From the NCBI GenBank assembly GCA_029564465.1, contig JAKQPY010000225.1:28936-92935 (forward strand): a stretch of DNA of 64,000 bases, in the 5' to 3' direction. Both the position numbers and the translations under genes were made by a program. This DNA comes from Bacteroidota bacterium. GTDB taxonomy: Bacteria > Bacteroidota > Bacteroidia > Bacteroidales > ML635J-15. Position 1 is the first letter of the stretch. Every line of letters begins with the position of its first letter. The notes under the pieces were generated by a model. The model had not been told where the DNA came from. It did not search any database and saw only the letters and a program-made list of their open reading frames with translations. Of the stretch, positions 11,651 to 38,175 are shown piece after piece.

Positions 11651-11659
11651 TATTGGATG

Positions 11660-12703: not shown

Positions 12704-12835
12704 AAGTTGTTGGTTTTAAAGTGCAAAATAGTCTTTTTTATAATATTGATTGTTTGTAACGCAAATAATCTGTACACATTGTTTTGTTGAACAGAAATAG
12801 GCCTGAAGATGTTTATGCTTAACGGGTAAAAATTG

Positions 12836-12843
12836 TACTTTTG
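12836..12843 (+). promoter_or_regulatory. Candidate Bacteroidota -7 box (TAnnTTTG) upstream of ribD
   Basis: TACTTTTG lies 17 nt upstream of the ATG at 12860. Confidence 0.3.
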
Positions 12844-12859
12844 TCGTGAAATGAACACT

Positions 12860-15611: not shown

Positions 15612-15733
15612 ATCATAATTTTACTATATTAAAATGTGAACATAATTTTGTTAATAGGTGTAAATTTAAAGGGGAGGCTGTCTTTACAAAAACTATGTAT
15701 TGTTTTTCAGGATACAGATGTATTCTGCCTCTA

Positions 15734-16966: not shown

Positions 16967-16968
16967 TG

Positions 16969-17307: not shown

Positions 17308-17357
17308 CTGAAAAATTTTGTTCAAAATTAATAAAAATATCCTGATGAAGCAGGATG

Positions 17358-19883
17358 TTACTTGCGGGGTTCTGAGGAATCGTTGACCGATTGCATATCA
17401 GCCAGTGCTATTCTCAGCTCATTAAAGTTGAATTTGCCATTGCTTTCCATCATGATTTGAGTCAAACTGCCCACATTTTTACCCTTGACGAATTCCTTAA
17501 TTTCGGCAATGCGTCCGGCATCGAGTAAGTCTTCGGCCTGTAATTCTCCGGTGATAACGTAGTAACTCAGATGTCCCCATATGGTAGATTCTGCAAACCC
17601 TCTTTCGGTAGCGATTTGCGGAATACTTTTGTTTTCGCGGAACAGCGCCAGACTTACCGATTTGGATTCCGGCTTTTTTTCTTTTTTCTTTTTTGCCGGG
17701 ATGTCGTCGGCAGGAGCATCGCGTTCAATGGCATTTTCGAGGCAATAATCATGTATCATTTCGAGAATGTCGCTGCCAAACTGCTGTAGTTTTACCTTGC
17801 CCAGTCCCTTTATTTTCGACAGCTCTCTTTGTGTTGCAGGTAGTTTATCGCAAATCAGTTTCATGGTATTGAATGGCATTACCATAAACGGCGACACCCG
17901 TAAATCGTCGGCAACCGAAGCGCGCCATGCGTTTAGCTGCGAATACAGTTTTTTGTGATTGATTGATTTTACTGAGCTTTCGACAGGCAATTTTTTTAGT
18001 CCAAGCGTTTGCACAAAGCCGGCCTCAGCATCGGATACCGCCCTGAGGTAAGTCTGTATATCAAGCCCACCGGTTACCGCCCTGAGTGCTGCGGTTTTTA
18101 GCACCATAGCCAGCTCGAAGCGTCCGGCTGATTCTATGATTTCTTTTTTCACTTCCTTGTTATCGGAGTCGAAACCTATGCTACTCATCGGAATGGCAAA
18201 CAGCAACGCCATCTTTTCGAGAAAATAGCTTGCGGCTTTCGAAATGCGTTCTTGCAATGCCGGATTATCGCAGGGCAGCAGGTCGGGATTTTGTTTAATG
18301 ATCGACCGCAACTGGATGTTAAATTTATCATTCACCTCATACATTTCCGAAACTGCATCTGCTTCGATACGCCCGAAAGCTGCTTCATCGGCATTGTGAA
18401 TTTTGGAAGCATTGAGCTGATAGTGTTTTTTCAGCGACCTGAACTGACGTTGTAAATCGCCGAAATCGAATATCGAAAAGACGACTTCCTGCTGAAATGC
18501 GGCTTTCGATTCGCGCAGGGAGTCTTCGCCGGGCTCGTTTTGCTGGGCTGTTTCGTTGAACTCGCGTATGTTGACATCGGTCTTTATAGCATGGCGTTGT
18601 ATCTTCGAAATAAGAACCAGTCCTTCGAGAGTTCGGCAACGGCTGAGGGCAACATATACCTGCCCTGAGGCAAAAGCCTGATTCACATCGAGAACGGCTT
18701 TTTCGAATGTAAGTCCCTGACTTTTGTGCACCGTAATAGCCCAGGCAAGTTTCAATGGAATTTGCTTGAAACTGCCTATAATTTCTTCCTCAATTTCGCG
18801 CGTTTCTTCGTTGAGGTGAAGCTTCACATTGCTCCATTCTTCGGGAGTCACTCTGATTTCTTCTTCGTCACCCGGGCATTCAACCACAACCGAGTCTTCG
18901 TCGAGACGGGTTAGGCGGCCAATTTTACCATTATAATACCTTTTTTCGGGTGAAGAATCATTTTTTACAAACATTACCTGTGCCCCGGGTTTAAGCTCCA
19001 GCACCTCGTCGGTGGGAAACATATAGGATTGAAAGTCGCCCGTTATATTAGCCTTGTACCTGCGTGAACGCGATTTCAGTGCGGCCATTTTTTTGTCGTT
19101 AATCAGCGCTGCGCCGGCATTGTGGGTTGTGAGGGTAATATAGCCTTCCGACTCATCGGGGTCGAAGTTTGCAATATACCTCGAATTTAACAAATCAAAA
19201 GAGGCCTGAGACATCGAATTGTTTCTGATTTCACCCAGCAGTTCAATGAATTTTTGGTCTTCCTGGCGATAGATTTGCTTCAGCTCGATGGTAGTAAACC
19301 CGGCTTTGCCCAGGGCGTGGCTGTTGAAAAAGTATGCGTTGGAATAATATTCCGACAGCAGCCTCCACTCATCTTCTTTTACGACGGGAGCCAACTGGTT
19401 TAAATCGCCAATCATCAGCAGTTGCAGTCCTCCGAATGGTCTCTGATTATAACGGTAACGCCTCAGCATGCTGTCGATGGCATCGAGCAGGTCGGCACGC
19501 ACCATACTGATTTCGTCAATTACCAGCAAATCGAGGCTGCGGATGAGTTTAATTTTATTACGGGTCATTTTATGCACAAAACCTTCCTGCGACTCACCGG
19601 TATTGTTTTTAGGGCGGGAGGCCGGTTGATGTTCTGGTATAAACGGCGTAAAAGGCAACTGAAAAAACGAATGAATGGTTACGCCTCCGGCATTTATAGC
19701 CGCCACCCCGGTGGGTGCCAGCACAGCCATCCGCTTCGGACAGCTTTCCCGGAGATTACGCAGGAATGTGGTTTTTCCGGTGCCGGCTTTTCCGGTCAGG
19801 AAAATATTTTGGTGGGTATATTGCACAAACTCGTTGGCCAACAATAGTTGGGGATTGGTTTCGTGTATGTTGGTTGTGCCCAC
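17358..19883 (-). CDS. PIF1/RecD-family helicase with an HRDC domain and a C-terminal helix-turn-helix
   Basis: Walker A LTGKAGTGKTTFL, DEISMV and AITVHKSQGLTF. An HRDC-like segment is present (LYSQLNAWRASVADDLRVSPFMVMPFNTMKLICDKLP...IKGLGKVKLQQFG), followed by a C-terminal HTH (IPQIATERGFAESTIWGHL). GTG start. Confidence 0.85.
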   Translation of the reverse strand: MGTTNIHETNPQLLLANEFVQYTHQNIFLTGKAGTGKTTFLRNLRESCPKRMAVLAPTGVAAINAGGVTIHSFFQLPFTPFIPEHQPASRPKNNTGESQEGFVHKMTRNKIKLIRSLDLLVIDEISMVRADLLDAIDSMLRRYRYNQRPFGGLQLLMIGDLNQLAPVVKEDEWRLLSEYYSNAYFFNSHALGKAGFTTIELKQIYRQEDQKFIELLGEIRNNSMSQASFDLLNSRYIANFDPDESEGYITLTTHNAGAALINDKKMAALKSRSRRYKANITGDFQSYMFPTDEVLELKPGAQVMFVKNDSSPEKRYYNGKIGRLTRLDEDSVVVECPGDEEEIRVTPEEWSNVKLHLNEETREIEEEIIGSFKQIPLKLAWAITVHKSQGLTFEKAVLDVNQAFASGQVYVALSRCRTLEGLVLISKIQRHAIKTDVNIREFNETAQQNEPGEDSLRESKAAFQQEVVFSIFDFGDLQRQFRSLKKHYQLNASKIHNADEAAFGRIEADAVSEMYEVNDKFNIQLRSIIKQNPDLLPCDNPALQERISKAASYFLEKMALLFAIPMSSIGFDSDNKEVKKEIIESAGRFELAMVLKTAALRAVTGGLDIQTYLRAVSDAEAGFVQTLGLKKLPVESSVKSINHKKLYSQLNAWRASVADDLRVSPFMVMPFNTMKLICDKLPATQRELSKIKGLGKVKLQQFGSDILEMIHDYCLENAIERDAPADDIPAKKKKEKKPESKSVSLALFRENKSIPQIATERGFAESTIWGHLSYYVITGELQAEDLLDAGRIAEIKEFVKGKNVGSLTQIMMESNGKFNFNELRIALADMQSVNDSSEPRK

Positions 19884-19964
19884 TTAAAGCAGCGTTTTAA
19901 TTAGTAAGGCTAAAAATACAATTAAATATTTACTATTAAAATGTCTCAGGTAGAAACAATGAAT

Positions 19965-22900
19965 TTAGGGATAATAGGTTTCAACAATAACAGAAACATA
20001 TCCGCTACTATATGACGAATGCAAGTGAGGTCTGATTCTATAAGTGGGCGCTGAAGAATTATCTTCTCTGTTTATTATTACTTCAAGCCCACCACTATAA
20101 TTAACGCCCCAGTCGGAACTCATAGTATATTGAGTTCCCACAGTACTACAATTCACCCTACCTCCTCCCGATTCTTGGGAATAATCCCACCACCCGGTAT
20201 AACCCGATTTTGGGGCCAATCTGATGTAATAGTAATCGCCCGAACGATAGGCATACAATGTTACTGCATAATCATCATATATTTGATAACTGCCGTCCGC
20301 ACTCATAACAAGCTTAGAATAACGTTCCACTTTTTTTGCGGTACCGGCGCCCAAACCTGAGGTGTTGCTGTAAATGAGCATACCTCCTGTTTCGGCATTG
20401 GTATTGGTGCTACCCGATATACGTGCGCTTCCGGCATTTATGTGGAGTTTGCTTGAAGGGGTAGAGGTTCCAATACCCACGTCACCATCCGATTCAACCA
20501 CAAGACTACCCGATCTTACATTAAATTCTTGCTTAGGTATTAAAATACTTGAACTGGCTGCTCCGGGATCGGATGCCGTTGTCCCTGCATGTGTCCATGT
20601 CCCTCCAGAACACGAAATTTCGTAAAAAGAGCTTACCCCGGTATATGCTCCAAAATACATATAAACATCGAAAGATGTAGCCGCTGTTCCTGCATTATTA
20701 GCAACAAACTTTATAAGTCCGGTGGTTGCAAATTGCCCGTTCTCACCTATAACATAGTATGTTGCATCGCCAGCAAAACCATTGGCATCAACGCTACTTC
20801 CATTGCTGGTTTTGAAGCGTATATACACTTCGTAATTTTGAGAAGTGGTAGCGTTATAACCAGTATTTGATACAACACGTATGTAAGCGCTTCGGCCTTG
20901 TTGTGCCATTGCTAATGTTCCTAGTTTAACCCACTGGGCTGATCCTCCCGTATTTGGCAACGTGTAGCACACGCCATTGCCGGACCAGCTTAAGGTACCT
21001 GTTCCATTATTATATAAAACTCCTTGTGCATTGGCATCGGGCCATGTCATAGATTGCCCGCGAATGGATGCAATATTCCCATTTGAAGCAACCTGAAATT
21101 GAGAGGAGCTTCCTACTGAGAAAGTATTAGCAGGCGAAGAAGTTCCAATCCCCAATCGTATGTTGGTGTTGTCCCAGTATAAACTTGCACTTGAACTTAA
21201 ACTATAGGTGCCATTCCAAAAGGCAACACGTGTTGCTGTTCCGGATCCGGTAACATTATCAGAAGGTAATACTGCTCCTACTTGATCGTCAACATATTTT
21301 TTTGAAGCTGCATGAGCATCGGCAGTTGGAGTTACGGGAATTGTTACCTGATCGGAAAAATGTCCGGTGCCGCTTACGTCTAATTTATATGTCGGTGAAG
21401 TAACGCCAATACCCACATTACCATTTTCCTGAACAGTCATTTTCACATTGGTTGAAGAAGGGTCTCCCAACCCAATACCCAGTTTATTAGCACCGAATGT
21501 CCATGCTGAATTGGAGGCAACAAAAAACACATTGGCACCTGATGCTTCAATATTTCTTAAGCGAAAAACTGCATCGTAAGTACCACTGCCTTCTACGTGA
21601 AGTTTGGCATTGGTTGGTGTGGCTGTTCCTATTCCCACATATGCTGAATTATTGTTATAAATATTATTTCCCGACGCAGTCCAAACACTGTTGAGGGTGC
21701 TTCCATCCCAACTTAGTCCGGTGCCGTTGATAAACAGAGAAGATGCAGGAGAAACGCTGAGATAACCTTCGTTGTTAACACTGAGAAAACCGTTTGTGTA
21801 GTTTTGGAATCGCACTGTCCCTGTGGTGTGAAGCTGGGCAGTCATGCTTGTTGTTCCTAACCCGAGGTTCGATTCAATATAGGTGTTACCGGAAAAGTAC
21901 CCCGCCCAGTTTTCGGAACCACCATAGGCAATGCCGTGTATACCGTAATTAATACCAGGGCCAGAGGCATGACCAACCACTGCATGTTTTCGTTCCGCAT
22001 TAAAATTGTCAAAATTTCCAAAGACACCAATTCTCGTACCCGTTCCTTCGAGGAAGCTGGTACCAACTACTCCGTAACGAGCACCAATACCAACCACACC
22101 CATCCCTTTTCCTGCTACGTTATCGCACATACCGACCAATCCCATATCTTCATCGGCAACACTTCCGTTGTAAAAAAAGCCGGATGCGCCTAAATTTTCT
22201 CCATCTCCTTCAGTGGTATCTGCAACTGTAAATCGATAATCGGGAGTGGTGATTCCAATCCCCACATTACCATTTTCCTGAACAGTCATTTTCACATTGG
22301 TTGAAGAAGGATCTCCCAACCCAATACCCAGTTTATTAGCACCGAATGTCCATGCTGAATTGGAGGCAACAAAAAACACATTGGCACCTGATGCTTCAAT
22401 ATTTCTTAAGCGAAACACTGCATCGTAAGTACCACTGCCTTCTACGTGAAGTTTGGCATTGGTTGGTGTGGCTGTTCCTATTCCCACATATCCTGAATTA
22501 TTGTTATAAATATTATTTCCCGACGCAGTCCAAACACTGTTGAGGGTGCTTCCACTCCAACTCAATCCTGTACCTGCATTAAACAAAGAGGAAGCTGTGC
22601 TTACTCCAAGATTTCCTAAATTATCAACATATAGAAAGCCATTCATGTAATTCGAAAAACGAACCGTGCCATTAGTGTGCAGTTGTGCTGTCGGACTAAT
22701 GACTCCCAGACCTAGGTTTGTTTGGATATAGGTGTCACCAGCAAAATAACCGGCCCAGTTTTCGGAACCACCACTCGCTGTACCATAAACTCCGTAGTTA
22801 GTACCTAAGCCCTCGGCACTACCTCTTACGCCAATCTTTGAATCGGCATTTGCGTTGGCATATCCCAAAACTCCAATTCTATCACCACTGCCTTCTATTA

Positions 22901-23513
22901 GTGAGCTACCCATAACACCAACCCATCCACCATCACCGGATACTCCAATACCGTTTGCGGCAACACTGTTAGACGTTCCTACTATTCCTGTTGCATCGTA
23001 GGCAGTGGTGTTTTGATTAACAAAAATACCGACATAGTTTTCATGATTACCCAATACTGATAGTGGAGCAGTGGGGGTATTAATTCCTATTCCAAGATAT
23101 CCATTTACATTATCCCAAAACAAATTACTATTTGAGCTTAATGTATTACTGTTGTTCCAAAAAGCTACTTCGGTGGCATTTCCGGAGCCTTGCACAAAAT
23201 TAAGGTCGTTTGTTACTGTTAATCGAACCCATTCGCTACCCGTCCAGAAATAGTATCCTTTACCAGTTGTGATATTTGTATTGTAAACTAATAAACTCTC
23301 TACAGGAGAATCAATGGGAGTAGAGTTTGAAAGGTTAGAAATGGATATTCTGGGAATTAGAAGTCCTGTATTATCCGAACTAATGTCGAGCATAGCTGAG
23401 CTATGTGCAGATGCATTTGTTTTGTTTATAGCAACACCTTGCGAATGTATATAATTGCTGCATAAAGCAAAAATGACTATTATCACTAATCTAAAAGTAT
23501 TGGTTGTTTTCAT
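19965..23513 (-). CDS. Tail-fibre-like secreted protein, paralog A (1182 aa)
   Basis: Signal peptide ending in SQG. A conserved N-module follows (GVAIN..SAMLD..GLLIPR..LLVYN..GYYFWTGSEW). G/N/T/S-rich repeats contain recurrent GIGT..P...L.V collars. An AASKKYVDDQ motif is present. No T9SS CTD. Confidence 0.8.
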   Translation of the reverse strand: MKTTNTFRLVIIVIFALCSNYIHSQGVAINKTNASAHSSAMLDISSDNTGLLIPRISISNLSNSTPIDSPVESLLVYNTNITTGKGYYFWTGSEWVRLTVTNDLNFVQGSGNATEVAFWNNSNTLSSNSNLFWDNVNGYLGIGINTPTAPLSVLGNHENYVGIFVNQNTTAYDATGIVGTSNSVAANGIGVSGDGGWVGVMGSSLIEGSGDRIGVLGYANANADSKIGVRGSAEGLGTNYGVYGTASGGSENWAGYFAGDTYIQTNLGLGVISPTAQLHTNGTVRFSNYMNGFLYVDNLGNLGVSTASSLFNAGTGLSWSGSTLNSVWTASGNNIYNNNSGYVGIGTATPTNAKLHVEGSGTYDAVFRLRNIEASGANVFFVASNSAWTFGANKLGIGLGDPSSTNVKMTVQENGNVGIGITTPDYRFTVADTTEGDGENLGASGFFYNGSVADEDMGLVGMCDNVAGKGMGVVGIGARYGVVGTSFLEGTGTRIGVFGNFDNFNAERKHAVVGHASGPGINYGIHGIAYGGSENWAGYFSGNTYIESNLGLGTTSMTAQLHTTGTVRFQNYTNGFLSVNNEGYLSVSPASSLFINGTGLSWDGSTLNSVWTASGNNIYNNNSAYVGIGTATPTNAKLHVEGSGTYDAVFRLRNIEASGANVFFVASNSAWTFGANKLGIGLGDPSSTNVKMTVQENGNVGIGVTSPTYKLDVSGTGHFSDQVTIPVTPTADAHAASKKYVDDQVGAVLPSDNVTGSGTATRVAFWNGTYSLSSSASLYWDNTNIRLGIGTSSPANTFSVGSSSQFQVASNGNIASIRGQSMTWPDANAQGVLYNNGTGTLSWSGNGVCYTLPNTGGSAQWVKLGTLAMAQQGRSAYIRVVSNTGYNATTSQNYEVYIRFKTSNGSSVDANGFAGDATYYVIGENGQFATTGLIKFVANNAGTAATSFDVYMYFGAYTGVSSFYEISCSGGTWTHAGTTASDPGAASSSILIPKQEFNVRSGSLVVESDGDVGIGTSTPSSKLHINAGSARISGSTNTNAETGGMLIYSNTSGLGAGTAKKVERYSKLVMSADGSYQIYDDYAVTLYAYRSGDYYYIRLAPKSGYTGWWDYSQESGGGRVNCSTVGTQYTMSSDWGVNYSGGLEVIINREDNSSAPTYRIRPHLHSSYSSGYVSVIVETYYP
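21382..23079 (-). repeat. In-frame tandem duplication, 2 x 849 bp (283 codons), inside paralog A
   Basis: The reverse-frame track ORFs 21497-21694 and 22346-22543 are near-identical, giving an offset of 849 bp. The core 21412-21705 versus 22261-22554 differs at 3 of 294 nt in a hand alignment. The flanks are homologous only at protein level, and the unit boundaries are approximate. Confidence 0.85.
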
Positions 23514-23536
23514 AATTGAATATTAATTTATTGTAG

Positions 23537-23544
23537 CAAATATA
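23537..23544 (-). promoter_or_regulatory. Candidate -7 box (TATATTTG on the minus strand) upstream of paralog A
   Basis: The plus strand reads CAAATATA, which matches TAnnTTTG on the minus strand ~24 nt upstream of the ATG at 23513. Confidence 0.3.
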
Positions 23545-23589
23545 TTGAAAAAATCAATATAATGCAAATCAAATGTTTAGATTTTACTA

Positions 23590-26547
23590 TTAATCAATAC
23601 GAATAGCGGTAATGCTTGCATTTTTTATGTATGCAGTATAACCACCATATGAATAATATTGCAATGCTATTGTATTTGTTGCTGATAGGGTAATGACTTT
23701 GGTTAAAGTATAAGGGGCATATTCTCCAGGATAATTGTAGTTCCAACCTTCTCCCAATGATGTTGATGTTGTAGAATTGTAAAATCTATAAGCAGTGCCA
23801 TCGTCGTAATAATTATGAGTTAATTCACAACTAAACGTCACAAAATAAGTTCCGGCAGGCAAACTTAAGCTTGCTTTAGTTTGATAGCTTGAAGATGTTG
23901 TTGTGCTTACAGCTTCACTTTGATTGTAATAGGTGCAGCCTTTTAGCCCACCTCCTGTAATGTTAACATCACCTTCAACATGTAGTTTTTCGGTTGGAGC
24001 TGTTGTGCCAATACCTACATTGCCGCCACTCGGGTTTAAGGAAAGATTAGACTGAGCCGTTCCAATATCGGTAGAACGAATATATCCACAACGTGTTTCG
24101 GTATCGGCTCCCATATACAATGCGTGGTCACTGTCACGTATCATAATTGCATGAGTCCCCCACTCATTTGCATTTGCATCACCTTCATGCTGGATTTGAA
24201 GTTTACCATATGCAGGGCTGGCAGTAGCAATACCTACATTCCCATTACTGTTTAGCACCGTAACACGGGTATTTCCCGATGTTTGCAATTGCAAATCTTC
24301 GTTGTAGGAACCAATCAAACCTTCGTCAACAGTAATGCCTTTATTGAAATAGTATCGTGGTCTGTCGGTAGAGAAGTGAGACCAGTCAGCGTTTTGAGGA
24401 CCAAAATCGGTGTAGCCGTAATTGGTTTGCAGTCGTATGGAATTGCTGCCGCCTTCGGCAATTCGGGTGTTAACATCGTTAATATCGAGGTAACCGGCTT
24501 CTCCGTGACCAATTTTTACCTTACCGGCAACATAGAGGTTATAGGTTTGCCCGGTTCGGGGCAAATACAATCCATATGAAGCAAATTCTGCTACACCGTC
24601 GATGTTTTCGGAGCGGAATTTCACACGGTTGCTGTTTGAATACATTTCGGTTTGAGCATTATCGCCAACGCGTATTCTGCCGGCAATACTTAAATTTCCG
24701 CCACCACTAATACTGGCCACATTCGTAAGGTTGCGCCTAAACACCCACCCTCGGGCTGTATTGTCGTTCATAGTAAAATAGGTAGCCCAGTCGGAAGTTA
24801 CATAACCATGTGTGCCAAATGTGCCTGTGCCTGCAAACATAATACCGTAGGTAGGAGCTCCCGCAGTGGGTCCATTGTAGAGAGAAATTCCATATCCGGT
24901 AGAGTTTGAAGTGTTTTGTATTCCAAATGTTTGCGAACGCAAATCGGTGGTAAAACGTCCGTTTCCGGTAACATCGAGCTTATAAGATGCAGCCGTATTG
25001 CCTATCCCAACATTACCACCTCCATAGGCCATGTATATACTATTGGCCTCATAATACTGCAGATACAAATCACCGGGATTGGCATCTCCGTCATTTTTAC
25101 CGCGGATATGTCGTGCCGAAAGGCTTCCGTTGCTTGTTCCACCTACATTCAAATAGGTTGTTGAAGCACTGCTCCCCTGTATTGTAAAAAGATGAGAAGG
25201 GGCAGAGGTGCCAATACCAACAGCAGTTCCATTATCGTATATTTGAGAATTGCCAAGGGTATTTCCATTGGGAGTCCATTTCGACACATAATTGGTTGTT
25301 CCGCTACCGCTTACCAAGCCGGAGCCTGCTGCTGAAGCTGCCGAAAGATTCCCGCTGGCATCGGCATAAACAATTCTGGAACCTGTTCCTGCCAGAGTTT
25401 GAAAACGCACCCCACCGGTTGTATGAAGTTGTGTTGACGGCGCAGTGGTTCCAATGCCCACATATCCCGAAGGGTCAATCCTCATGCGTTCGGTTCCATT
25501 GTTGCTGGTAAAAGTCATATATCCACCGGTAGTGCTACTTCCCCTGTAAAACTCGATAGAACTGTTTAACTGACCGTAGAATGTGTTTTCGATAGAAAAC
25601 ATTTTACCGCCGTAGCTGGTATTTTGAGTTTCCCAAGCCCTAACACCCAGAAAAGTGCCTGAGCCTGTACTGTTCCCTTCCGATTGGCGGGCAAACACAG
25701 TGCGCAGAGCACCTCCTGCGGTTGTACCGCCATTATCGATATTGGCTGCCGGACTGGTGGTTCCAATACCTAAATTTGTGCTAATATATGTGTTCCCCAT
25801 AAAATATCCGGCCCAGTTTTCAGAACCACCATAGGCAATGCCATAGATTCCATAGTTGATACCCGGTCCTGAGGCGTGGCCGGTAACCGCATATTTTTGG
25901 TCGGCATCTAAATCTTCGAGTTGCCCAAAAACACCCACGCGCCAACCTGATCCTTCCTGAAAACTTCTGCCGATTACACCACATCGCCCACCCAATCCAG
26001 CGACACCGACACCTTGATCTGGCTGATTATCGCATATACCCGTAACTCCGATGCCCCATTCGTCAATGCTTTTGTTGATGAAAACGCCGGTGGCTTCAAA
26101 AAGGACTGCTGGAACACCAGTGCTGTCAACTACTGTAAATCGATAGTCTGGGCTTGTGGTTCCAATCCCCACGTTGGTGCCGTTATCAAAAATCAGAGAG
26201 TTCCCCAGTGAATTTGCTCCCGTAAATTTCGAAACATAATTCTGTGTCCCCGTTACGTCAAGCCCGGTACTAATCTTGGTCCACACTGTTCCGTTATAAA
26301 AGTAGAAACCGGGTTGATTATCGGTTTGATAAATCAATAATCCGGAGGCAGGAGAGGCCAGATTTCCCCGTTGGGCTAATGTCATACGAGGTATTAATAT
26401 ACCACCCGATGTTGACTGCACATCAAGCATTGCCGAAGAATCGGCAGGATTTCCGCTTGTATTAATGGCTACGCCCTGCGAAAACAGGGGTGTGGAAATG
26501 AGCCCAACGAATATAAGGCTGATGGCTAACAGTAGAATATTTTTCAT
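23590..26547 (-). CDS. Tail-fibre-like secreted protein, paralog B (985 aa)
   Basis: Signal peptide ending in SQG. It shares the N-module of A and C, has NVGIGTT.P collars and a TERMRIDPSGYVGIGTTAP motif. The C-terminal ~150 aa is unrelated to A and C. No T9SS CTD. Confidence 0.8.
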   Translation of the reverse strand: MKNILLLAISLIFVGLISTPLFSQGVAINTSGNPADSSAMLDVQSTSGGILIPRMTLAQRGNLASPASGLLIYQTDNQPGFYFYNGTVWTKISTGLDVTGTQNYVSKFTGANSLGNSLIFDNGTNVGIGTTSPDYRFTVVDSTGVPAVLFEATGVFINKSIDEWGIGVTGICDNQPDQGVGVAGLGGRCGVIGRSFQEGSGWRVGVFGQLEDLDADQKYAVTGHASGPGINYGIYGIAYGGSENWAGYFMGNTYISTNLGIGTTSPAANIDNGGTTAGGALRTVFARQSEGNSTGSGTFLGVRAWETQNTSYGGKMFSIENTFYGQLNSSIEFYRGSSTTGGYMTFTSNNGTERMRIDPSGYVGIGTTAPSTQLHTTGGVRFQTLAGTGSRIVYADASGNLSAASAAGSGLVSGSGTTNYVSKWTPNGNTLGNSQIYDNGTAVGIGTSAPSHLFTIQGSSASTTYLNVGGTSNGSLSARHIRGKNDGDANPGDLYLQYYEANSIYMAYGGGNVGIGNTAASYKLDVTGNGRFTTDLRSQTFGIQNTSNSTGYGISLYNGPTAGAPTYGIMFAGTGTFGTHGYVTSDWATYFTMNDNTARGWVFRRNLTNVASISGGGNLSIAGRIRVGDNAQTEMYSNSNRVKFRSENIDGVAEFASYGLYLPRTGQTYNLYVAGKVKIGHGEAGYLDINDVNTRIAEGGSNSIRLQTNYGYTDFGPQNADWSHFSTDRPRYYFNKGITVDEGLIGSYNEDLQLQTSGNTRVTVLNSNGNVGIATASPAYGKLQIQHEGDANANEWGTHAIMIRDSDHALYMGADTETRCGYIRSTDIGTAQSNLSLNPSGGNVGIGTTAPTEKLHVEGDVNITGGGLKGCTYYNQSEAVSTTTSSSYQTKASLSLPAGTYFVTFSCELTHNYYDDGTAYRFYNSTTSTSLGEGWNYNYPGEYAPYTLTKVITLSATNTIALQYYSYGGYTAYIKNASITAIRID

Positions 26548-26589: not shown

Positions 26590-28131
26590 CTAATGCTTGT
26601 CTATTTTGAACGTTTTGATAAAGTCCCCGCAAATAACACGAACGGTGTACATGGCCGGACTAACATCCGACAGGTTTACCTCCTGCTGAAACATTCCGAA
26701 GGTGTTTTCGGTGCGATTTGTCCATAGCATTTTTCCCAGCATATCGTACACCTGTATTGTGGTGGTTTCGCAATCAAGATTTTCGCCTTTTACATAAAAG
26801 AAATCATGGAACGGATTCGGGTAAACCATAATTACTGGAGAGGACTCTTCGTAGCAATAGGCGGTAACAATATTGCTATACTTAAAGCTTCCATCAATAT
26901 CAACCAGTTTCAGCCGGTAATATTTGGCCACCGGTTGATTTTTACTGTCGGTAAACCGATAGTCGAGTACTGCATTGCTGTTTCCTGCTCCTGCCACGAA
27001 GCCTATTTTTTCGAAATTAATTCCATCGAGCGATTTCTCGATATCGAAACCATAACTATTGATTTCGGAAGCGGTTTGCCAGAGCAAATCCACCCCGTTG
27101 CCATTACAAATTGAGGCAAAACTCAACAGTTCGATGGGTAATGGGTCTATATTGTTTTTAGAACCGAAGGTGACGAATTTTGAACCTTTGGCTGAAAAAG
27201 GAATGGGTCCCGAAGATATTACTCCTTCGTCGTGCGAAAAACTGGCCAGCCCACCCATGTCAATCCACATCCCGTCGAAATAGGCCAGCGAAAGGTCGGC
27301 AGGGTCGTAATTGGCATCGTTGCCGTCGCAAAGACTGTGAACACAAATTTCGCCCACCCCGTGCGCATTGTTCTTCCAATGCAGGGTAACACTGGTAAGA
27401 TCCTGCGATGAGTTTATCACCCAATATTCACGATCACTCACGTGATGCAGGCTTTCGTCCATATTGCCGCCATGTTCCCACCAGTCGGGCATTCCGGTGT
27501 TATCGAAATAGTATTGAATGGTTACCGAAGTCGATACAGATGGAGTTATGTCAACCGGAGCCCAGATTACATAATCTTCTGGAGTTAAGTCTCCGTCGAG
27601 GTCGCGCGAATTAATATTACCCAGGGGGAACGAAAATGCGGTAGCTCCGTCTTTTTGAACAGCTCCGTCGATAAATGCAGAACTACTGCCGGCACCACAA
27701 CTTGATCCGGCCAGAAATATCAGTTTATTGCCATTTCCGTTTACAATCCCATCTGTCAACGTAAGACTGCCGGCAATACTCATATCGTCGTTAATTACAA
27801 TGGCATAGTTTCCTGCGGAATTGTTATTAAAAGTAACATGCCGAAACTGGCTTCCCCCGCTGGTAATTATTTGTTGTGTACTACCATTGAAGATTACCGA
27901 ACTATTGGGACCACTGTTGAAAACTGCGGGTGCCGTATTTGTCCAGTTTCCCGCAATGCTGAGGTCTGTATTGTAGTAGAACAAGGCTCCACTACCTGTG
28001 TTTATCAAATTATTGAATTTGACATAGGTTCCATCGGGAACATGCACCTTTGCGCTGGTGTTGTTGATAGTTTGGGCTGCAAGAGAGCCACAGACGATCA
28101 TGAAAGCAATTGCAATAAAAACATTTTTCAT
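26590..28131 (-). CDS. Secreted protein with a T9SS type-A C-terminal sorting domain, interleaved in the fibre cluster
   Basis: ATG at 28131 (MKNVFIAIAFMIVCGSLAAQ). The N-terminus looks like a beta-helix (GNWTN...VIFNGSTQQIITSGG..FRHVTFNN). The C-terminus (VYPNPFHDFFYVKGEN...MYTVRVICGDFIKTFKIDKH) is CTD-like. Confidence 0.75.
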   Translation of the reverse strand: MKNVFIAIAFMIVCGSLAAQTINNTSAKVHVPDGTYVKFNNLINTGSGALFYYNTDLSIAGNWTNTAPAVFNSGPNSSVIFNGSTQQIITSGGSQFRHVTFNNNSAGNYAIVINDDMSIAGSLTLTDGIVNGNGNKLIFLAGSSCGAGSSSAFIDGAVQKDGATAFSFPLGNINSRDLDGDLTPEDYVIWAPVDITPSVSTSVTIQYYFDNTGMPDWWEHGGNMDESLHHVSDREYWVINSSQDLTSVTLHWKNNAHGVGEICVHSLCDGNDANYDPADLSLAYFDGMWIDMGGLASFSHDEGVISSGPIPFSAKGSKFVTFGSKNNIDPLPIELLSFASICNGNGVDLLWQTASEINSYGFDIEKSLDGINFEKIGFVAGAGNSNAVLDYRFTDSKNQPVAKYYRLKLVDIDGSFKYSNIVTAYCYEESSPVIMVYPNPFHDFFYVKGENLDCETTTIQVYDMLGKMLWTNRTENTFGMFQQEVNLSDVSPAMYTVRVICGDFIKTFKIDKH

Positions 28132-28254
28132 ATCAGTTACTTTATAGGTATTTCTTATCATAAATTATTTGAACTTAAAAAATTGAAACTAATGACCCTA
28201 ATATACCTCTCCCTTTTTAAACATTACCCATGCTTTAGCCCCAGCAGTACCTTG

Positions 28255-31200
28255 TTAGGAGAGAAAAACTCCAAAATCGCCAGAACCTCCATTGCTACCA
28301 CTATCATAAGCCTGTCCGCTGGTGGATGATACTCTTGCAAAATTACCTCTAGTAACAGCAGAGTTGACAACCACTTCGGTGATACCTGCTACTGCAATAC
28401 GTATTGGTTGACCGGCTGCTGTGGTTGTGTTTACGGCAATTCCTATCACATTTTCGCTGGCGGAACCTGCCTTTACAACGCGAAGGTCAGTGGCACTCGA
28501 AGGCATAACAATACTACCAGCCTCAATAGCTGCATCAGAAGTAAGTGTAATGCAAAATGCATTTTGATTGACGTTAATATTCCCCGCAACATCAAGTTTT
28601 TCTTGTGGGCTTGTAGTTCCAATTCCAATATTGCCGCCACTGCCGATACGCATTTTTTCAGACAGATTTGAATCGCCGGACCCGGTTGCTGTAGTCTCCT
28701 GTGTATAAAAAGCCAATTCTGTGCCCTGCGATAATGCAGAACAGCAAATATTGGTTCTAATTGCCGATATTTTTGCTCCCGTAAAATTGCTTACGACATC
28801 TCGATATCCTGCAAACCGGATTGCCAATTCTGGTTGTGCCCCTGACCCATCCCAACCAAGCCTATCGTTGTGATTACCAATCATAATACCATCTCCATTT
28901 CCAGATCCAACATGAAGCTTATAGGCTGGGATCGTAGTTCCTACTCCAACATTTCCATCAGGATTAATGTACATTCTTTCGTTATATCCGGATACATTGT
29001 TAATGTCACCAACTCCTGCATTATTGTAGGTTTGAAAACTTAAGGCGGGGGCACGAAGCGTAATTTGGTCAACTCCTGCACCATTGACAGGATCGTTTGC
29101 GTGAAACAAAATCAGCTCTGTTTTTTCGTTAGCAGCCCCCTGACCAGACGGAACAGTACGTGCCGTAATTACCGGGGCCGGATCACCAGTGGGTGCTGTA
29201 AAAGTGTAGGTGGCAGCATTGGCAGTACCGCTGATCCATAGATTTGCACTTTGCGCAGATGTATATTGATTTTGTATGTAGTTGCCACTACCAGATGCAA
29301 CCGCGTAATAACTCCCATGCTGTCCATCAAGCAAATCAGCATTGAGGTTTGAAACCATAGTAGTATTTCCAACTGAATAAAATTGACCGGTAACATTAAA
29401 ACCACCTTGAACATTCAGGTAATCCCATACTTTGATTTCACGCCCGCGCCCACTGTTACCAGCAATGTTATTCCCAACAATCATTAAAGCCTTGTAACTT
29501 CCATTATCGCTGATGATGTGGCCATAGGTAGCGCCCCCGTCAGACCAGTTATTTGCACTAATTCGGAGCCCGCCAGCATTACCCGACATATCCAGAGTAC
29601 GATTTGAACCCGTAAATGTTCCATAAAGATATGCGCCACCGTCTTTAATTTGAATATTGCCTGCTCCTGATGTAGGATATCCGGGTTGCAAAATCATCCC
29701 TCCGGCAGGCTGAATATACAAATCGTTTGTACCACGAATGAATTGTGCGGTTCCGGCCCAAATTTCCAAATATCTGGTGTCAACATACGAAGGGTCGTTA
29801 AATCGGGATATTCCAAGGATATCAAGTTTTTGAGCGGGGTTTGTTTTTCCAATACCCACGTTCCCCGATGCATCAATCCTTAATCTTTCAGTGTCGTTGT
29901 TGGTAGATATAGAAATAAAACCTCCAGTAGTACTTCCTCCTCTGTGGAATCGGATAAATGCATTGTCGGTTGTTCCGCTATAGGCTAAACCAAATTTTGA
30001 AGTAATATCACCGCTGTTGTTGGTTGTTACGCCTTTTTTGTTTACAATCCAAAAATTGACGTCGCCAATGGCTCTGCCCAATACTGTTTCTAACGCACCC
30101 GCTGTTGCCGATGGGTTGATTATGTGCAGTGTAGCCGAGGGAGATGCAGTTCCAATACCCACATTGGTTCCGTTATCAAAGATTTGAGAAATTCCTTGTG
30201 TATTGGTACCTGTCCATTTAGCAACATAGTTGGTCGTACCTGTGCCCGAAATCAGGCCAAATCCTGCCGCAGTATTTGTTGAAAGAACACCCGTTGCATC
30301 GGCCACCACAATACGGGTACCCGTACCTGCCAATGCGCTGAACCGATTGGTGCCTGTAGTGTATAATGTAGCAATATTACTTGTACTTGCCGGATCTAAA
30401 TAGTACCCGGTGTTGTCGCGATCATAAAATATGCTTGCACGGACATCGTTTAAAATGCTGACTGAACGTGGTTGTAGATAAAAACCGGTATTTGCGGCAT
30501 CATAAAAAATATTAGCCCTAAAATCATTGGTGATACTGGTGCTTGCCGGATCGATATAATAACTGGTATTTCCTAAATCATAGAAAATATTGGCACGCAT
30601 GTCGTTTGTGACACTGGTACTTGCAGGGTCAATGAAAAAACTAGTGTTGCTTTGATCATATAAAATACTGACCGCAGCAGCCCCATTCACATGAAGGGGA
30701 AACGATGGTGATGAAGTGCCAATTCCTACATTCGCTGTATTATTATTGTAAATATTATTTCCGTTAACCGACCACACACTGTTTAGTGTGCTGCCAGCCC
30801 AGCTTAAACCGTTGCCTGCTGTAAAAAGGGATGAAGCGGCCGAAACTCCCAGGTTTCCATTGGCATCAACGCGCAGAAAACCATTGGTGTAATTGGCAAA
30901 TCGAACGGTTCCTGTGGTGTGTAACTGAGCAGTGGGTGATGAAACACCAATACCGGTGTTGCCCGAAATGTAGAAAAGGCCATTAAAATATCCTGCCCAT
31001 CCTCCTGCACTAACGCCATATACCCCATAAATTCCACCTGTACCATAAACTCCATAGCTCCCACCATCTCCGTAAACTCCATAAGCTCCTCCGGACCCAT
31101 ATAAACCATAGTTACCGCTACCATATACGCCATAAGTGCCGCTACCATATAGACCCCTGTTGTTTCCGGCATCAGCAATTACTGCCGCAGTGGTGCCATT

Positions 31201-31641
31201 TGTAAAATACCCGGTGCCTGTAACATGTAACTTATACGAAGGGGATGTGGTTCCAATCCCCACATTGGTTCCATTATCAAAAATCTGAGAGTTCCCCAAA
31301 GAATTTGCCCCAGTAAACTTGGAAACATAATTCTGTGTCCCCGTAACATCAAGCCCGGTGCTGATCTTGGTCCACACGGTTCCATTAAAAAAATAGAATC
31401 CTGGTTGGTTATCAGTCTGATAAATTAATAAACCATTGGCCGGAGCAACCAGATTCCCCCGTTGAACAAAGCTCAGCCGGGGTATCAACATCCCCCCCGA
31501 CGTTGATTGTACATCGAGCATGGCGGAAGCATCGGCCGGATTACCACTTGTGTTGATGGCTACACCCTGCGAAAAAGCTGTTGTGGAAAAGATTCCCGTT
31601 ACAACCAGCGATATGAAGAGAATTCGGTAGAAGTTTCTCAT
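28255..31641 (-). CDS. Tail-fibre-like secreted protein, paralog C (about 1128 aa from the ATG at 31641)
   Basis: Signal peptide ending in SQG. Its N-terminal 111 aa after the signal peptide are identical to paralog B at 100 of 111 positions by hand alignment. It contains G/Y octapeptide repeats, 26-aa repeats and NVGIGT collars. No T9SS CTD. Confidence 0.8.
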   Translation of the reverse strand: MRNFYRILFISLVVTGIFSTTAFSQGVAINTSGNPADASAMLDVQSTSGGMLIPRLSFVQRGNLVAPANGLLIYQTDNQPGFYFFNGTVWTKISTGLDVTGTQNYVSKFTGANSLGNSQIFDNGTNVGIGTTSPSYKLHVTGTGYFTNGTTAAVIADAGNNRGLYGSGTYGVYGSGNYGLYGSGGAYGVYGDGGSYGVYGTGGIYGVYGVSAGGWAGYFNGLFYISGNTGIGVSSPTAQLHTTGTVRFANYTNGFLRVDANGNLGVSAASSLFTAGNGLSWAGSTLNSVWSVNGNNIYNNNTANVGIGTSSPSFPLHVNGAAAVSILYDQSNTSFFIDPASTSVTNDMRANIFYDLGNTSYYIDPASTSITNDFRANIFYDAANTGFYLQPRSVSILNDVRASIFYDRDNTGYYLDPASTSNIATLYTTGTNRFSALAGTGTRIVVADATGVLSTNTAAGFGLISGTGTTNYVAKWTGTNTQGISQIFDNGTNVGIGTASPSATLHIINPSATAGALETVLGRAIGDVNFWIVNKKGVTTNNSGDITSKFGLAYSGTTDNAFIRFHRGGSTTGGFISISTNNDTERLRIDASGNVGIGKTNPAQKLDILGISRFNDPSYVDTRYLEIWAGTAQFIRGTNDLYIQPAGGMILQPGYPTSGAGNIQIKDGGAYLYGTFTGSNRTLDMSGNAGGLRISANNWSDGGATYGHIISDNGSYKALMIVGNNIAGNSGRGREIKVWDYLNVQGGFNVTGQFYSVGNTTMVSNLNADLLDGQHGSYYAVASGSGNYIQNQYTSAQSANLWISGTANAATYTFTAPTGDPAPVITARTVPSGQGAANEKTELILFHANDPVNGAGVDQITLRAPALSFQTYNNAGVGDINNVSGYNERMYINPDGNVGVGTTIPAYKLHVGSGNGDGIMIGNHNDRLGWDGSGAQPELAIRFAGYRDVVSNFTGAKISAIRTNICCSALSQGTELAFYTQETTATGSGDSNLSEKMRIGSGGNIGIGTTSPQEKLDVAGNINVNQNAFCITLTSDAAIEAGSIVMPSSATDLRVVKAGSASENVIGIAVNTTTAAGQPIRIAVAGITEVVVNSAVTRGNFARVSSTSGQAYDSGSNGGSGDFGVFLS
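30355..30666 (-). repeat. Four tandem 78-bp (26-aa) coding repeats in paralog C
   Basis: The units are ILYDQSNTSFFIDPASTSVTNDMRAN, IFYDLGNTSYYIDPASTSITNDFRAN, IFYDAANTGFYLQPRSVSILNDVRAS and IFYDRDNTGYYLDPASTSNIATLYTT. Confidence 0.8.
31012..31155 (-). repeat. Gly/Tyr-rich 8-aa (24-bp) tandem repeats, about six copies, in paralog C
   Basis: GLYGSGTYGVYGSGNYGLYGSGGAYGVYGDGGSYGVYGTGGIYGVYG. Confidence 0.75.
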
Positions 31642-31663
31642 GAGCAAAATTTTAGTTAACTAC

Positions 31664-38174: not shown

Positions 38175-38175
38175 T

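What the first reader, a model, noticed from the sequence alone, without database searches (positions are those of the whole stretch)
21382..23079. 849-bp in-frame tandem duplication in fibre gene A with a sharply bounded 294-bp near-identical patch
Two 283-codon units are homologous throughout but clearly diverged at protein level. The exception is 21412-21705 versus 22261-22554, which differ at only 3 of 294 nt in my alignment. That patch encodes LNSVWTASGNNIYNNNS...KMTVQENGNVGIG. Identity collapses immediately outside the patch.

The N-terminal half of unit 2 (GLVGMCDNVAGKG...GHASGPGINYGIHGIAYGGSENWAGYF) is also closer to the equivalent cassette of gene B than to unit 1 of its own gene. This pattern suggests recent gene conversion or cassette exchange within and between paralogs, meaning the locus is actively recombining.
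Basis: seen in the sequence. Interest (0 to 1): 0.55.

Follow-up and report, generated by a model that had tools for sequence, protein, structure and literature searches.

The report
Recombining mosaic fibre gene in Bacteroidales
A surface-fibre gene of an uncultured Bacteroidales bacterium carries a real, recently copied 300-bp module inside an 849-bp internal repeat. Related strains show the fibre locus swapping, gaining and losing modules at a few conserved motifs, which is a clear but unsurprising example of how modular fibre and adhesin genes evolve.

Summary
Next to the patch, third-codon-position identity is 34%, although the protein stays 73% identical. This is therefore recombination, not selection.

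It is not an assembly artefact. The gene is nucleotide-identical in two other assemblies, and a third differs at 2 nt. The novel junction shares at most 14 nt with candidate sources.

Close relatives carry exactly one unit (899 aa = 1182 - 283), so copy number varies between strains.

Unit 2 is not a diverged copy of unit 1. It is a mosaic:
- its head cassette is 88-98% nt identical to a cassette in a separate paralog (o2) of a related activated-sludge strain;
- its neck has no close relative;
- its patch is a copy of gene A's own patch.

Six of seven mapped breakpoints fall in three conserved motifs (NVGIGT, NWAGYF, TLNSVW).

The genes are phage-tail-fibre-like proteins resembling Bdellovibrio MAT fibres. 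The similarity of unit 2 to gene B in this window is real but old.

This is a new member of a known kind, of moderate interest.

The parts
19965..23513 (-). Gene A: 1182-aa modular fibre protein with an N-terminal signal peptide. It holds both units.
   Evidence: ORF, translation. The PDB hit to the Bdellovibrio MAT fibre Bd2133 has E=3e-7. The PHROG tail-fibre hit has E=3.7e-7. The identical protein P0001 carries a precomputed PF26696 hit.
22255..22554 (-). Patch copy 1 (c1; gene nt 960-1259, aa 320-419)
21406..21705 (-). Patch copy 2 (c2; gene nt 1809-2108, aa 603-702). It differs from c1 at window 21643, 21567, 21462 and 21411.
22743..23093 (-). Unit 1 head cassette (aa 141-257, ending in GGSENWAGYF). 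It is orthologous to the cassette of the one-unit alleles (97-99% nt).
22555..22742 (-). Unit 1 neck (…TAQLHTNGTVRF…STLNS)
22603..22773 (-). 171-nt block that is 100% identical to paralog o2 of strain L063. It has sharp edges, and the upstream edge lies in the ENWAGYF motif.
21894..22256 (-). Unit 2 lead and head cassette (aa 420-540). It is 88-98% nt identical, in 20-codon windows, to the cassette of L063 o2. It is only 56% nt identical to unit 1 and 64% to gene B.
21706..21893 (-). Unit 2 neck. No close relative was found: about 62% nt to the unit 1 and gene D necks, and up to 83% locally to a second module of P0003.
22251..22268 (-). Novel junction from c1 into the unit 2 lead, inside the NVGIG-coding motif (AATGTGGG|GATTGGA). 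It shares only 14 nt or fewer exactly with the o2 and B pre-lead sequences.
21696..21720 (-). 5' border of the identity tract (gene orientation), in the GSTLNSVW-coding motif. Copy 1 carries GGA AGC ACC like copy 2, where the nearest one-unit alleles have GGT AGT ACA.
23590..26547 (-). Gene B: 985-aa paralogous fibre gene. In L063 its central 1.8 kb is 99.8% identical (3 mismatches), while the head cassette and tip are replaced. The edges lie at NWAGYF and GNVGIGT.
28255..31647 (-). It shares the neck and patch-start module at 60-75% nt.
26590..28161 (-). Gene C: T9SS-sorted protein lying between the fibre genes. It is also found next to the fibre gene in the P0003 loci.

Best explanation
Gene A is one of several neighbouring paralogous genes in an uncultured Bacteroidales chromosome. 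They encode signal-peptide-bearing, phage-tail-fibre-like modular fibres, probably trimeric and resembling Bdellovibrio MAT fibres.

The internal 849-bp repeat is the product of recent homologous or short-homology recombination, not of an old duplication that drifted apart. A one-unit ancestor (head, unit 1 cassette, neck, patch, tail), like those still found in close relatives, gained a second unit. The head cassette of that unit came from an o2/B-type paralog. The new unit was joined in at the NVGIG-coding motif that ends the patch. The insertion was completed by re-copying gene A's own patch from the TLNSVW motif onward. This left two patch copies that are about 1% diverged.

Since then the two copies have probably continued to exchange short tracts in both directions. 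As 300-bp direct repeats, they are also a ready substrate for deleting or adding a unit.

Across strains the same three conserved motif-coding stretches (NVGIGT, NWAGYF, TLNSVW) serve as in-frame crossover points. The locus therefore generates fibres with different numbers and combinations of head, neck and tip modules.

What is shown:
- the identity step at synonymous sites;
- the one-unit, two-unit and patch-less alleles;
- the mosaic sources of unit 2;
- the motif location of the breakpoints;
- reproducibility in independent assemblies.

What is inferred:
- the order of events (gain rather than loss);
- the enzymology (RecA-type recombination, or template switching during repair);
- trimeric structure and surface display;
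- any adaptive role of the variation.
For: 1. Synonymous-site step. Third-position identity is 96% in the patch and 34% in the adjoining neck, although the neck protein is 73% identical. No permutation out of 20,000 reached the observed run.

2. The patch is not under unusual nucleotide constraint. The orthologous patch of the P0003-type alleles differs at 16 of 294 nt, mostly at synonymous sites.

3. One-unit alleles.
- P0002 and P0123 are 899 aa, which is 1182 - 283, and align to gene A with a single 283-aa gap.
- L008 is 99.1% nt identical to the window over head, unit 1 and patch, and sits upstream of the same helicase gene.
- P0003 and L010 also have one unit.

4. Unit 2 is a mosaic.
- The front cassette is 88-98% nt identical to L063 o2, against 56% to unit 1.
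- The neck has no close relative.
- The patch is 99% identical to copy 1.
- This o2 identity matches the general divergence between the two strains: 96-99% for A/o3, B/o1 and the helicase gene.

5. Breakpoints at motifs.
- The junction from copy 1 into unit 2 lies in NVGIG.
- The 5' edge of the tract lies in TLNSVW.
- The o3 deletion junction lies at xVGIGT.
- The o2/unit 1 block starts in ENWAGYF.
- The B/o1 99.8% block is bounded by NWAGYF and GNVGIGT.

6. Signs of continuing exchange.
- Copy 1 carries copy-2-type bases at patch positions 4, 7 and 10, while the body of both copies is A-type.
- L009 differs from the window gene at only 2 of 3549 nt. Both lie at sites that distinguish the copies, and each changes to the other copy's base. 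The chance of that is about 6e-7 for two random substitutions.

7. The structure is real.
- L006 (JGI) and L007 (MEGAHIT k141) contain the gene with 0 mismatches.
- L009 (SPAdes) also has two units.
- The window has a different upstream context from these three.

8. Family.
- 8OND (Bd2133), E=3e-7.
- PHROG tail-fibre families.
- Homologs named as tail-fibre-domain proteins, many with Peptidase_S74.
- Relatives with 3-4 WAGYF modules.
Against: - The direction of change (gain or loss of unit 2) rests on parsimony over a few alleles that are themselves recombinant.
- L008's patch mixes copy 1 and copy 2 states (C at position 63; G and T at positions 139 and 244). No single simple history predicts this.
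- No donor with a unit-2-type neck was found.
- The two L009 differences could be bubble-collapsing by the assembler within a near-identical repeat rather than biological conversion.
- All sequences are metagenome assemblies, and no reads were examined.
- Trimeric fibre structure is not shown. The AlphaFold monomer model was poor (pLDDT 62.9). The local Pfam scan did not reproduce the precomputed PF26696 hit.
Confidence: 0.72

Rival explanations
1. Ancient tandem duplication followed by a single recent intragenic gene conversion. The two-unit gene is old, units 1 and 2 diverged in place, and a conversion tract about 300 bp long recently overwrote one patch with the other. The one-unit alleles are secondary deletions between the homogenised patches.
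For: - The units are collinear and homologous over their whole length.
- Copy 1 carries copy-2-type bases at the 5' border, which fits conversion between two pre-existing copies.
- Recombination between 300-bp direct repeats gives exactly the 899-aa architecture that is observed.
- Multi-module relatives exist in the family.
Against: - The unit 2 front is far closer to a cassette in a different gene of another strain (88-98% nt) than to unit 1 (56%). Unit 2 is therefore not simply a diverged copy of unit 1.
- One-unit alleles occur in at least three allele lineages (L008, L001, L002/L010) that bracket the two-unit allele. This would need repeated losses.
- The 3' end of the tract coincides exactly with the unit junction, which is expected for a formation event and coincidental for a conversion tract.
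- L008's patch is not the copy-1-5'/copy-2-3' hybrid expected from a simple deletion.
Confidence: 0.2
2. Assembly artefact. The tandem arrangement, or the near-identity of the patch, was created by a short-read assembler. It could have merged two strain alleles or two paralogs through a shared repeat, or collapsed variants within the repeat.
For: - All the data are metagenome assemblies.
- The longest exact stretch shared by the two copies is 104 nt, longer than many k-mers.
- L009 differs from the window only at sites that distinguish the copies, as bubble collapse would produce.
- Contigs L007 and L009 break at an IS just upstream of the gene.
Against: - The same 3549-nt gene is recovered with 0 mismatches by at least two other assemblies and with 2 mismatches by a third. 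Different assemblers were used (k141 MEGAHIT-style, SPAdes NODE, JGI), and the flanking contexts differ.
- The junction from copy 1 into unit 2 shares at most 14 nt exactly with any candidate source context. That is far below assembler k-mers, so it must be read-supported.
- The copies keep 3-4 fixed differences.
- The reading frame is intact across both junctions.
Confidence: 0.05
3. The patch is conserved by selection at the nucleotide level, or is maintained by a programmed diversification system. Candidates are an embedded RNA or regulatory element, an overlapping gene, a diversity-generating retroelement (DGR) with template and variable repeats, or a site-specific shufflon.
For: The patch boundaries coincide with module boundaries, and the locus is clearly hypervariable.
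Against: - Orthologous patches in other strains diverge normally at synonymous sites: 2-5% overall, with third-position identity of 89% to the P0003 type.
- The differences between the copies are G/C, G/T, T/C and G/T, not adenine-specific.
- There are no inverted repeats of 60 nt or more in the window.
- No reverse transcriptase, integrase or invertase was found among the neighbouring genes scanned.
- The listing of ORFs of at least 80 aa shows no opposite-strand ORF within either patch copy.
Confidence: 0.03

Closest known systems
Bdellovibrio bacteriovorus MAT (mosaic adhesive trimer) fibres, e.g. Bd2133 and Bd1334 (PMC10769870; PDB 8OND)
   Same: - Long chromosomally encoded, phage-tail-fibre-like proteins present as many paralogs.
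- Beta-helix modules with recurring motifs.
- Direct sequence hit of gene A aa 618-721 to Bd2133 (E=3e-7).
- Chimeric architecture. The paper notes that Bd2133 and Bd1334 share 75%-identical N-termini but have exchanged C-termini.
   Different: - Different phylum and lifestyle: a non-predatory Bacteroidales from sludge-type metagenomes.
- No S74 chaperone domain was detected in A, B or D.
- Here the exchange is caught in progress, with 99-100% identical tracts and copy-number alleles between strains. It also involves internal head and neck modules, not only tips.
- Trimerisation and surface display are untested.
Mosaic tail-fibre genes of tailed phages (own knowledge: horizontal exchange of fibre segments at conserved linker sequences in T-even, P2/Mu/P1-type and lambdoid phages)
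   Same: - Modular fibres whose segments are swapped by recombination at short conserved stretches.
- PHROG tail-fibre families hit A, B and D.
- Distant (about 41%) relatives of the neck and patch-start module occur in viral contigs.
   Different: - The locus is chromosomal. It lies between housekeeping genes and a polysaccharide cluster, with no phage structural genes nearby.
- The proteins carry Sec-type signal peptides.
Modular trimeric autotransporter adhesins with recombination-driven repeat and cassette variation (own knowledge: Bartonella BadA/Vomp neck-stalk repeat number variation; Moraxella UspA1/UspA2 exchangeable cassettes)
   Same: - Tandem paralogous fibre adhesin genes.
- Near-identical internal repeats that change unit number.
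- Cassettes shared between paralogs.
- GxxG-rich head-like repeats. Some homologs carry precomputed YadA-head hits (PF05658).
   Different: - No YadA-type C-terminal membrane anchor was detected in A, B or D, so these are not autotransporters.
- The sequence motifs differ (NVGIGT, WAGYF).
Gene-conversion antigenic variation systems (own knowledge: Neisseria pilE/pilS, Borrelia vlsE)
   Same: Non-reciprocal transfer of short tracts between homologous cassettes, producing surface-protein variants.
   Different: - There is no expression site plus silent-cassette organisation. All partners are full-length genes with signal peptides.
- No dedicated initiation element is known.
- The rate is unknown.

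Membership tests
Recent gene conversion / duplicative recombination tract (concerted evolution of intragenic repeats) | Near-identity at synonymous sites inside the tract while flanking homologous sequence is saturated | tested here: met
   Third-position identity is 96% in the patch and 34% in the neck. Identical codons among identical residues are 92/96 inside the patch and 44/106 outside.
Recent gene conversion / duplicative recombination tract (concerted evolution of intragenic repeats) | The tract is longer than chance allows and has sharp boundaries | tested here: met
   The 294-nt run compares with a maximum of 83 nt in 20,000 permutations. The borders are resolved to within a few nt.
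Recent gene conversion / duplicative recombination tract (concerted evolution of intragenic repeats) | The copies within one genome are closer to each other than to orthologs | tested here: inconclusive
   - Copy 1 vs copy 2: 3/294 differences.
- Copy 1 vs L001: 7/294.
- Copy 1 vs L002: 16/294.
- The nearest one-unit allele, L008, is about as close (5/294) as the copies are to each other.
- The copies share states that are absent from all one-unit alleles only at positions 7 and 10.
MAT-type / phage-tail-fibre-like trimeric fibre | Sequence homology to characterised fibre beta-helix modules | tested here: met
   8OND Bd2133, E=3e-7. PHROG tail-fibre families reach E=3.7e-7 for A, 6e-27 for B and 5e-21 for D.
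MAT-type / phage-tail-fibre-like trimeric fibre | Trimeric fibre structure | tested here: inconclusive
   The AlphaFold2 monomer model of aa 415-725 has pLDDT 62.9 and pTM 0.39.
MAT-type / phage-tail-fibre-like trimeric fibre | C-terminal S74 intramolecular chaperone (S74 subfamily) | tested here: not met
   There is no Peptidase_S74 hit in A, B or D, although many homologs carry PF13884. If these are members, they belong to the non-S74 kind.
Pfam PF26696 (PTL_trimer) | Hit above the Pfam threshold | tested here: inconclusive
   A precomputed hit is listed for P0001, which is identical to gene A, and for most homologs. The local hmmscan of A and of its four segments returned no such hit, even at E<=10.
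Trimeric autotransporter adhesin | C-terminal YadA-like membrane anchor | tested here: not met
   No anchor domain was found in the Pfam scan of A, B or D.
T9SS cargo | C-terminal Por_Secre_tail sorting domain | tested here: not met
   The domain is absent from A, B and D. It is present in neighbouring gene C and in the 2509-aa protein.
Diversity-generating retroelement target | Template/variable repeat pair with adenine-specific mismatches and a nearby reverse transcriptase | tested here: not met
   The mismatches are G/C, G/T, T/C and G/T. No reverse transcriptase was found among the 27 window ORFs scanned against Pfam. Not every small ORF was scanned.

The most novel reading that the evidence does not exclude
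The fibre locus could be a contingency locus. On this reading the three conserved motif-coding stretches (NVGIGT, NWAGYF, TLNSVW) are maintained partly as in-frame recombination "splice sites". They would let three or four chromosomal paralogs shuffle, duplicate and delete head, neck and tip modules fast enough to differ between strains that are only 1-3% diverged. That would amount to a combinatorial surface-fibre variation system in environmental Bacteroidales, analogous in outcome to pilin or TAA cassette variation but built from phage-fibre-like modules.
Probability: 0.2. Interest if true: 0.6.

Novelty: new member of a known kind. Interest (0 to 1): 0.35.

Why it matters
This is a clean natural example of how modular fibre and adhesin genes diversify.
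- Tracts of 99-100% identity sit inside otherwise saturated paralogs.
- Unit-number alleles occur among near-identical strains.
- Breakpoints recur at a few conserved motifs.

It extends the mosaic fibre idea described for Bdellovibrio MAT proteins to uncultured Bacteroidales of sludge-type communities. It also flags a family of large surface proteins with little or no curated annotation.

For genome analysis there are practical consequences. Such loci are strain-variable, tend to break assemblies, and should not be treated as simple orthologs.

It does not reveal a new mechanism.

Tried and rejected
- **DGR or programmed recombination.** Rejected. The mismatches are not adenine-specific, the window has no inverted repeats of 60 nt or more, and no reverse transcriptase or recombinase was found among the neighbours scanned.
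- **Nucleotide-level constraint.** Rejected, because orthologous patches diverge at synonymous sites.
- **Gene B as the recent donor of unit 2.** Rejected. Identity is only 64% nt, with 41% at third positions.
- **Structure prediction of unit 2 (aa 415-725) with a 23-sequence alignment.** The model had pLDDT 62.9, so no fold search was run.
- **Local Pfam and NCBIfam scans of A, B and D.** These gave essentially nothing: a sub-threshold DUF6947 hit for A and a sub-threshold GHD hit for D. They did not reproduce the precomputed PF26696 hit.
- **Literature search for PF26696 / PTL_trimer.** No papers were found. A search on Bacteroidota tail-fibre-domain proteins found nothing relevant.
- **Second protein search with the unit 2 segment alone.** Uninformative: 96 candidates and one weak hit.
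- **Apparent match of L065 across the junction from copy 1 into unit 2.** This turned out to be an ordinary P0003-type patch-to-tail sequence.
- **Viral-contig scan.** It found only distant (about 41%) module relatives.
- **First metagenome scan.** It failed on a frame error and was repeated.


Full report
**1. The observation**

The finding lies inside a single ORF on the minus strand, window 19965-23513 (1182 aa). I call it gene A.

At an offset of 849 nt, window 21406-21705 matches 22255-22554 at 296 of 300 positions. The mismatches are at 21411, 21462, 21567 and 21643. Three of the four differences are at third codon positions. One is non-synonymous (Gly341 in copy 1, Ala624 in copy 2).

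A protein self-alignment confirms two collinear units of about 283 residues.

On a codon alignment the identity between the units falls into three zones:

| Region | aa identity | nt identity | third-position identity |
|---|---|---|---|
| Head-cassette front | 46.7% | 55.9% | 37.1% |
| Neck | 72.9% | 62% | 33.9% |
| Patch | 99% | 98.3% | 95.9% |

Among codons that encode the same residue, 92/96 are identical in the patch and 44/106 outside it. No permutation of the mismatch positions out of 20,000 gave a run with 3 or fewer mismatches longer than 83 nt, against the observed 294.

The step therefore occurs at synonymous sites within a region where the protein is conserved on both sides. That is the signature of recombination, not of selection on the protein.

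**2. The repeat is not an assembly artefact**

The identical protein (P0001) occurs on other contigs.
- L006 (JGI 3300010346) and L007 (ENA ERZ27257425, k141-style contig) contain the 3549-nt gene with 0 mismatches.
- L009 (ENA ERZ795028, SPAdes NODE_2483; the NCBI record names it a Bacteroidales MAG) has it with 2 mismatches.

All three match the window from 9965 up to 23587 and then diverge. They continue into an IS with a DDE transposase, where the window has gene B. The same two-unit gene is therefore recovered in at least two genomic contexts and by different assemblers.

The novel junction from copy 1 into the start of unit 2 shares at most 14 nt exactly with any candidate source sequence. 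That is too short for a k-mer graph to create a chimera.

Reads were not available, so a residual doubt remains. It mainly concerns how the few variant sites are phased between the two copies.

**3. What relatives show**

Close homologs have one unit. P0002 and P0123 are 899 aa, exactly 1182 - 283. They align to gene A with a single 283-aa gap that removes one patch and the unit 2 cassette. P0003 and L010 (a different tail, a different species-level genome) also have one unit.

L008 (P0123) is 99.1% nt identical to the window over head, unit 1 and patch. It is followed by the same helicase gene, so it is an allele of the same locus.

The patch sites give the following picture.
- Copies 1 and 2 differ at patch positions 63, 139, 244 and 295.
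- The copies agree with each other and differ from every one-unit allele at positions 7 and 10.
- The copies differ from L001 at 7/294 sites and from L002 at 16/294 sites.
- L008 is about as close to each copy as the copies are to each other.

The second patch copy is therefore roughly as young as the split between the closest alleles.

**4. Unit 2 is a mosaic, not a diverged copy of unit 1**

A metagenome scan with the unit 2 cassette found L063, an activated-sludge contig. It carries the orthologous locus, with three fibre genes in a row followed by the same helicase gene:
- o1, which is B-like;
- o2, 618 aa;
- o3, which is A-like, 516 aa.

In 20-codon sliding windows, o2 is 88-98% nt identical to the window's unit 2 head cassette. 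Identity then drops to about 60% in the neck. Against unit 1, o2 shows the converse pattern: 40-60% in the cassette, then a block of 171 nt at 100% identity (window 22603-22773), with sharp edges.

The 88-98% figure is in the range of general divergence between the two strains: A/o3 97%, B/o1 99%, helicase gene 96%. The unit 2 cassette has therefore sat in a separate paralog in one strain and inside gene A in another, within strain-level time.

The unit 2 neck has no close relative. It is about 62% nt identical to the unit 1 and gene D necks, and up to 83% locally to a second module of P0003.

Third-position identity to B is only 41%, so this reflects old cassette ancestry, not a recent exchange with B.

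**5. Where the breakpoints are**

- The 3' end of the identical tract is the junction of copy 1 with the unit 2 lead. It lies inside the NVGIG-coding motif, AATGTGGG|GATTGGA. Gene B and o2 have the same motif directly before their cassettes.
- The 5' end lies in the GSTLNSVW-coding motif. There, copy 1 carries GGA AGC ACC like copy 2, and the upstream context of copy 2 resembles L002. The nearest one-unit alleles have GGT AGT ACA.
- o3 lacks most of the patch and the middle of the tail. It joins NNNSG directly to the last xVGIGT module of the tail.
- The o2/unit 1 100% block begins in ENWAGYF.
- o1 and B are 99.8% identical (3 mismatches) over about 1.8 kb, bounded by NWAGYF on one side and GNVGIGT on the other. 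The head cassette and the tip are replaced.

Six of seven mapped breakpoints fall in three conserved motifs.

This is expected. Recombination between diverged paralogs can start only where nucleotides are conserved, and only in-frame products compatible with the module structure survive. It explains why the patch is so sharply bounded.

**6. Signs of continuing exchange**

L009 differs from the window gene at only two positions:
- gene nt 1098 (copy 1, patch position 139, G to T, the copy 2 base);
- gene nt 1871 (copy 2, patch position 63, C to G, the copy 1 base).

For two random substitutions, the chance of hitting copy-distinguishing sites with the other copy's base is about (8/(3549x3))^2, or roughly 6e-7 (my calculation).

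The copy-2-type bases at the 5' edge of copy 1, against an A-type body in both copies, also imply transfer in both directions.

The caveat is that an assembler that pops bubbles inside a near-identical repeat could produce the L009 pattern.

**7. Most likely history and mechanism**

I favour a recent gain, with probability of roughly 0.55 within the recombination explanations.
1. The ancestor was a one-unit gene.
2. It acquired an o2/B-type cassette by a short-homology join at NVGIG.
3. The event was completed by re-copying the gene's own patch from the TLNSVW motif. This could have happened in one repair event with template switching, or in two successive unequal exchanges.

This needs one gain instead of several losses. 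It explains why the 3' tract end coincides with the unit junction, and it explains the foreign origin of the unit 2 cassette.

The alternative is an old two-unit gene with a recent conversion tract and secondary deletions. I give it about 0.2. It is not excluded, because the alleles are themselves recombinant. L008's patch mixes copy 1 and copy 2 states in a way that neither simple history predicts.

Either way, the 300-bp direct repeats are now a substrate for RecA-type deletion or expansion of an 849-bp in-frame unit. The enzymology and the rates are inferred, not shown.

**8. What the genes are**

A, B (23590-26547) and D (28255-31647) share an N-terminal signal peptide and head domain, and they carry repeated xGIG motifs. 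The evidence on family is as follows.
- Local Pfam and NCBIfam scans give no curated family for them. A has a sub-threshold DUF6947 hit and D a sub-threshold GHD hit.
- The identical database protein carries a precomputed PF26696 (PTL_trimer) hit.
- Gene A aa 618-721 matches the crystallised Bdellovibrio MAT fibre Bd2133 (8OND, E=3e-7). The MAT paper describes trimeric beta-helix fibres with chimeric tips (PMC10769870).
- PHROG tail-fibre families hit all three genes.
- Many homologs are named tail-fibre-domain proteins and end in a Peptidase_S74 chaperone. A, B and D do not.
- No YadA anchor and no T9SS C-terminal domain is present in A, B or D. Gene C (26590-28161), which lies between them, is T9SS cargo.
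- Relatives with 3-4 WAGYF modules exist, so repeating a module is a family habit.

The context is chromosomal. Downstream lie a PIF1-type helicase gene, rbfA and an FtsX-type permease gene. On the other side lies a polysaccharide biosynthesis cluster. No phage structural genes, reverse transcriptase or recombinase were found.

An AlphaFold2 monomer model of one unit was too poor to use (pLDDT 62.9). This is unsurprising for a protein that probably folds only as a trimer.

**9. Verdict**

This is a clear, well-documented case of mosaic evolution of a fibre or adhesin gene family by recombination at conserved module borders. The same kind of evolution is known from phage tail fibres, Bdellovibrio MAT fibres and trimeric autotransporter adhesins. 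It is a new member of a known kind, of moderate interest (0.35).

The most novel reading not excluded is that the locus works as a contingency system for combinatorial fibre variation (probability about 0.2).

Noticed in passing
window 23587/23588 (just after the stop codon of gene B); L006 2850-4111: Three other assemblies (L006, L007, L009) are identical to the window from 9965 to 23587. They then continue into an IS carrying a DDE_Tnp_1/DUF4372 transposase instead of gene B. In L006 the sequence beyond the IS is unrelated (an SSB gene and a T9SS protein gene). The fibre cluster B-C-D is therefore either strain-specific or separated from gene A by an IS-mediated rearrangement.
   Followed up: partly
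L063 5-3235 (o1) vs window gene B 23995-25858: The B ortholog in the activated-sludge strain is 99.8% identical (3 mismatches) over about 1.8 kb. It has a completely different head cassette and C-terminal tip. The identity block is bounded by the NWAGYF and GNVGIGT motifs.
   Followed up: partly
L063 5850-7400 (o3): This is a 516-aa allele of gene A. It joins the start of the patch (NNNSG) directly to the last xVGIGT module of the tail and has a different tip. It is a patch-less deletion or replacement variant at the same locus.
   Followed up: partly
window 26150-26449 vs 31241-31540: The N-terminal head regions of genes B and D are 82% nt identical over 300 nt. That is much higher than elsewhere in the two genes and may mark an older exchange between them.
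   Followed up: no
window 31097-31155 (gene D): A 24-nt tandem repeat of 2.5 copies (80% matches) encodes the GxYGVYGSG-type glycine/tyrosine repeats of D's head cassette. It is a possible slippage-prone stretch.
   Followed up: no
L008 / P0123 and L001 / P0002 vs window 19965-21713: The one-unit alleles are 98-99% identical to the window over head, unit 1 and patch. They are only about 90-91% identical over the remaining 3' part. The amino-acid differences are concentrated in the C-terminal part of the protein, from aa 583 of the 899-aa alleles onward. This indicates a further allele-level recombination breakpoint within the tail.
   Followed up: partly
window 45377-52906 (minus strand): A 2509-aa ORF with a T9SS C-terminal sorting domain and weak PKD/polycystin-like repeats lies between two polysaccharide-biosynthesis gene groups (32310-45324 and 53359-63956).
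   Followed up: no
window 55492-56907 (plus strand): A Schlafen/AlbA_2 + HATPase_c_4 + HTH protein is embedded in the second polysaccharide-biosynthesis cluster. This is an architecture often discussed in connection with defence or regulation.
   Followed up: no
L011 (uncultured Bacteroidales SRP241326_co3_331), 1614-12661: A related species-level genome also has three fibre-like genes in a row. The last has a tip 86% identical to gene A's tip, but its N-terminal region is only 36% identical to A's. The multi-gene fibre locus and tip sharing therefore extend beyond the immediate strain group.
   Followed up: no
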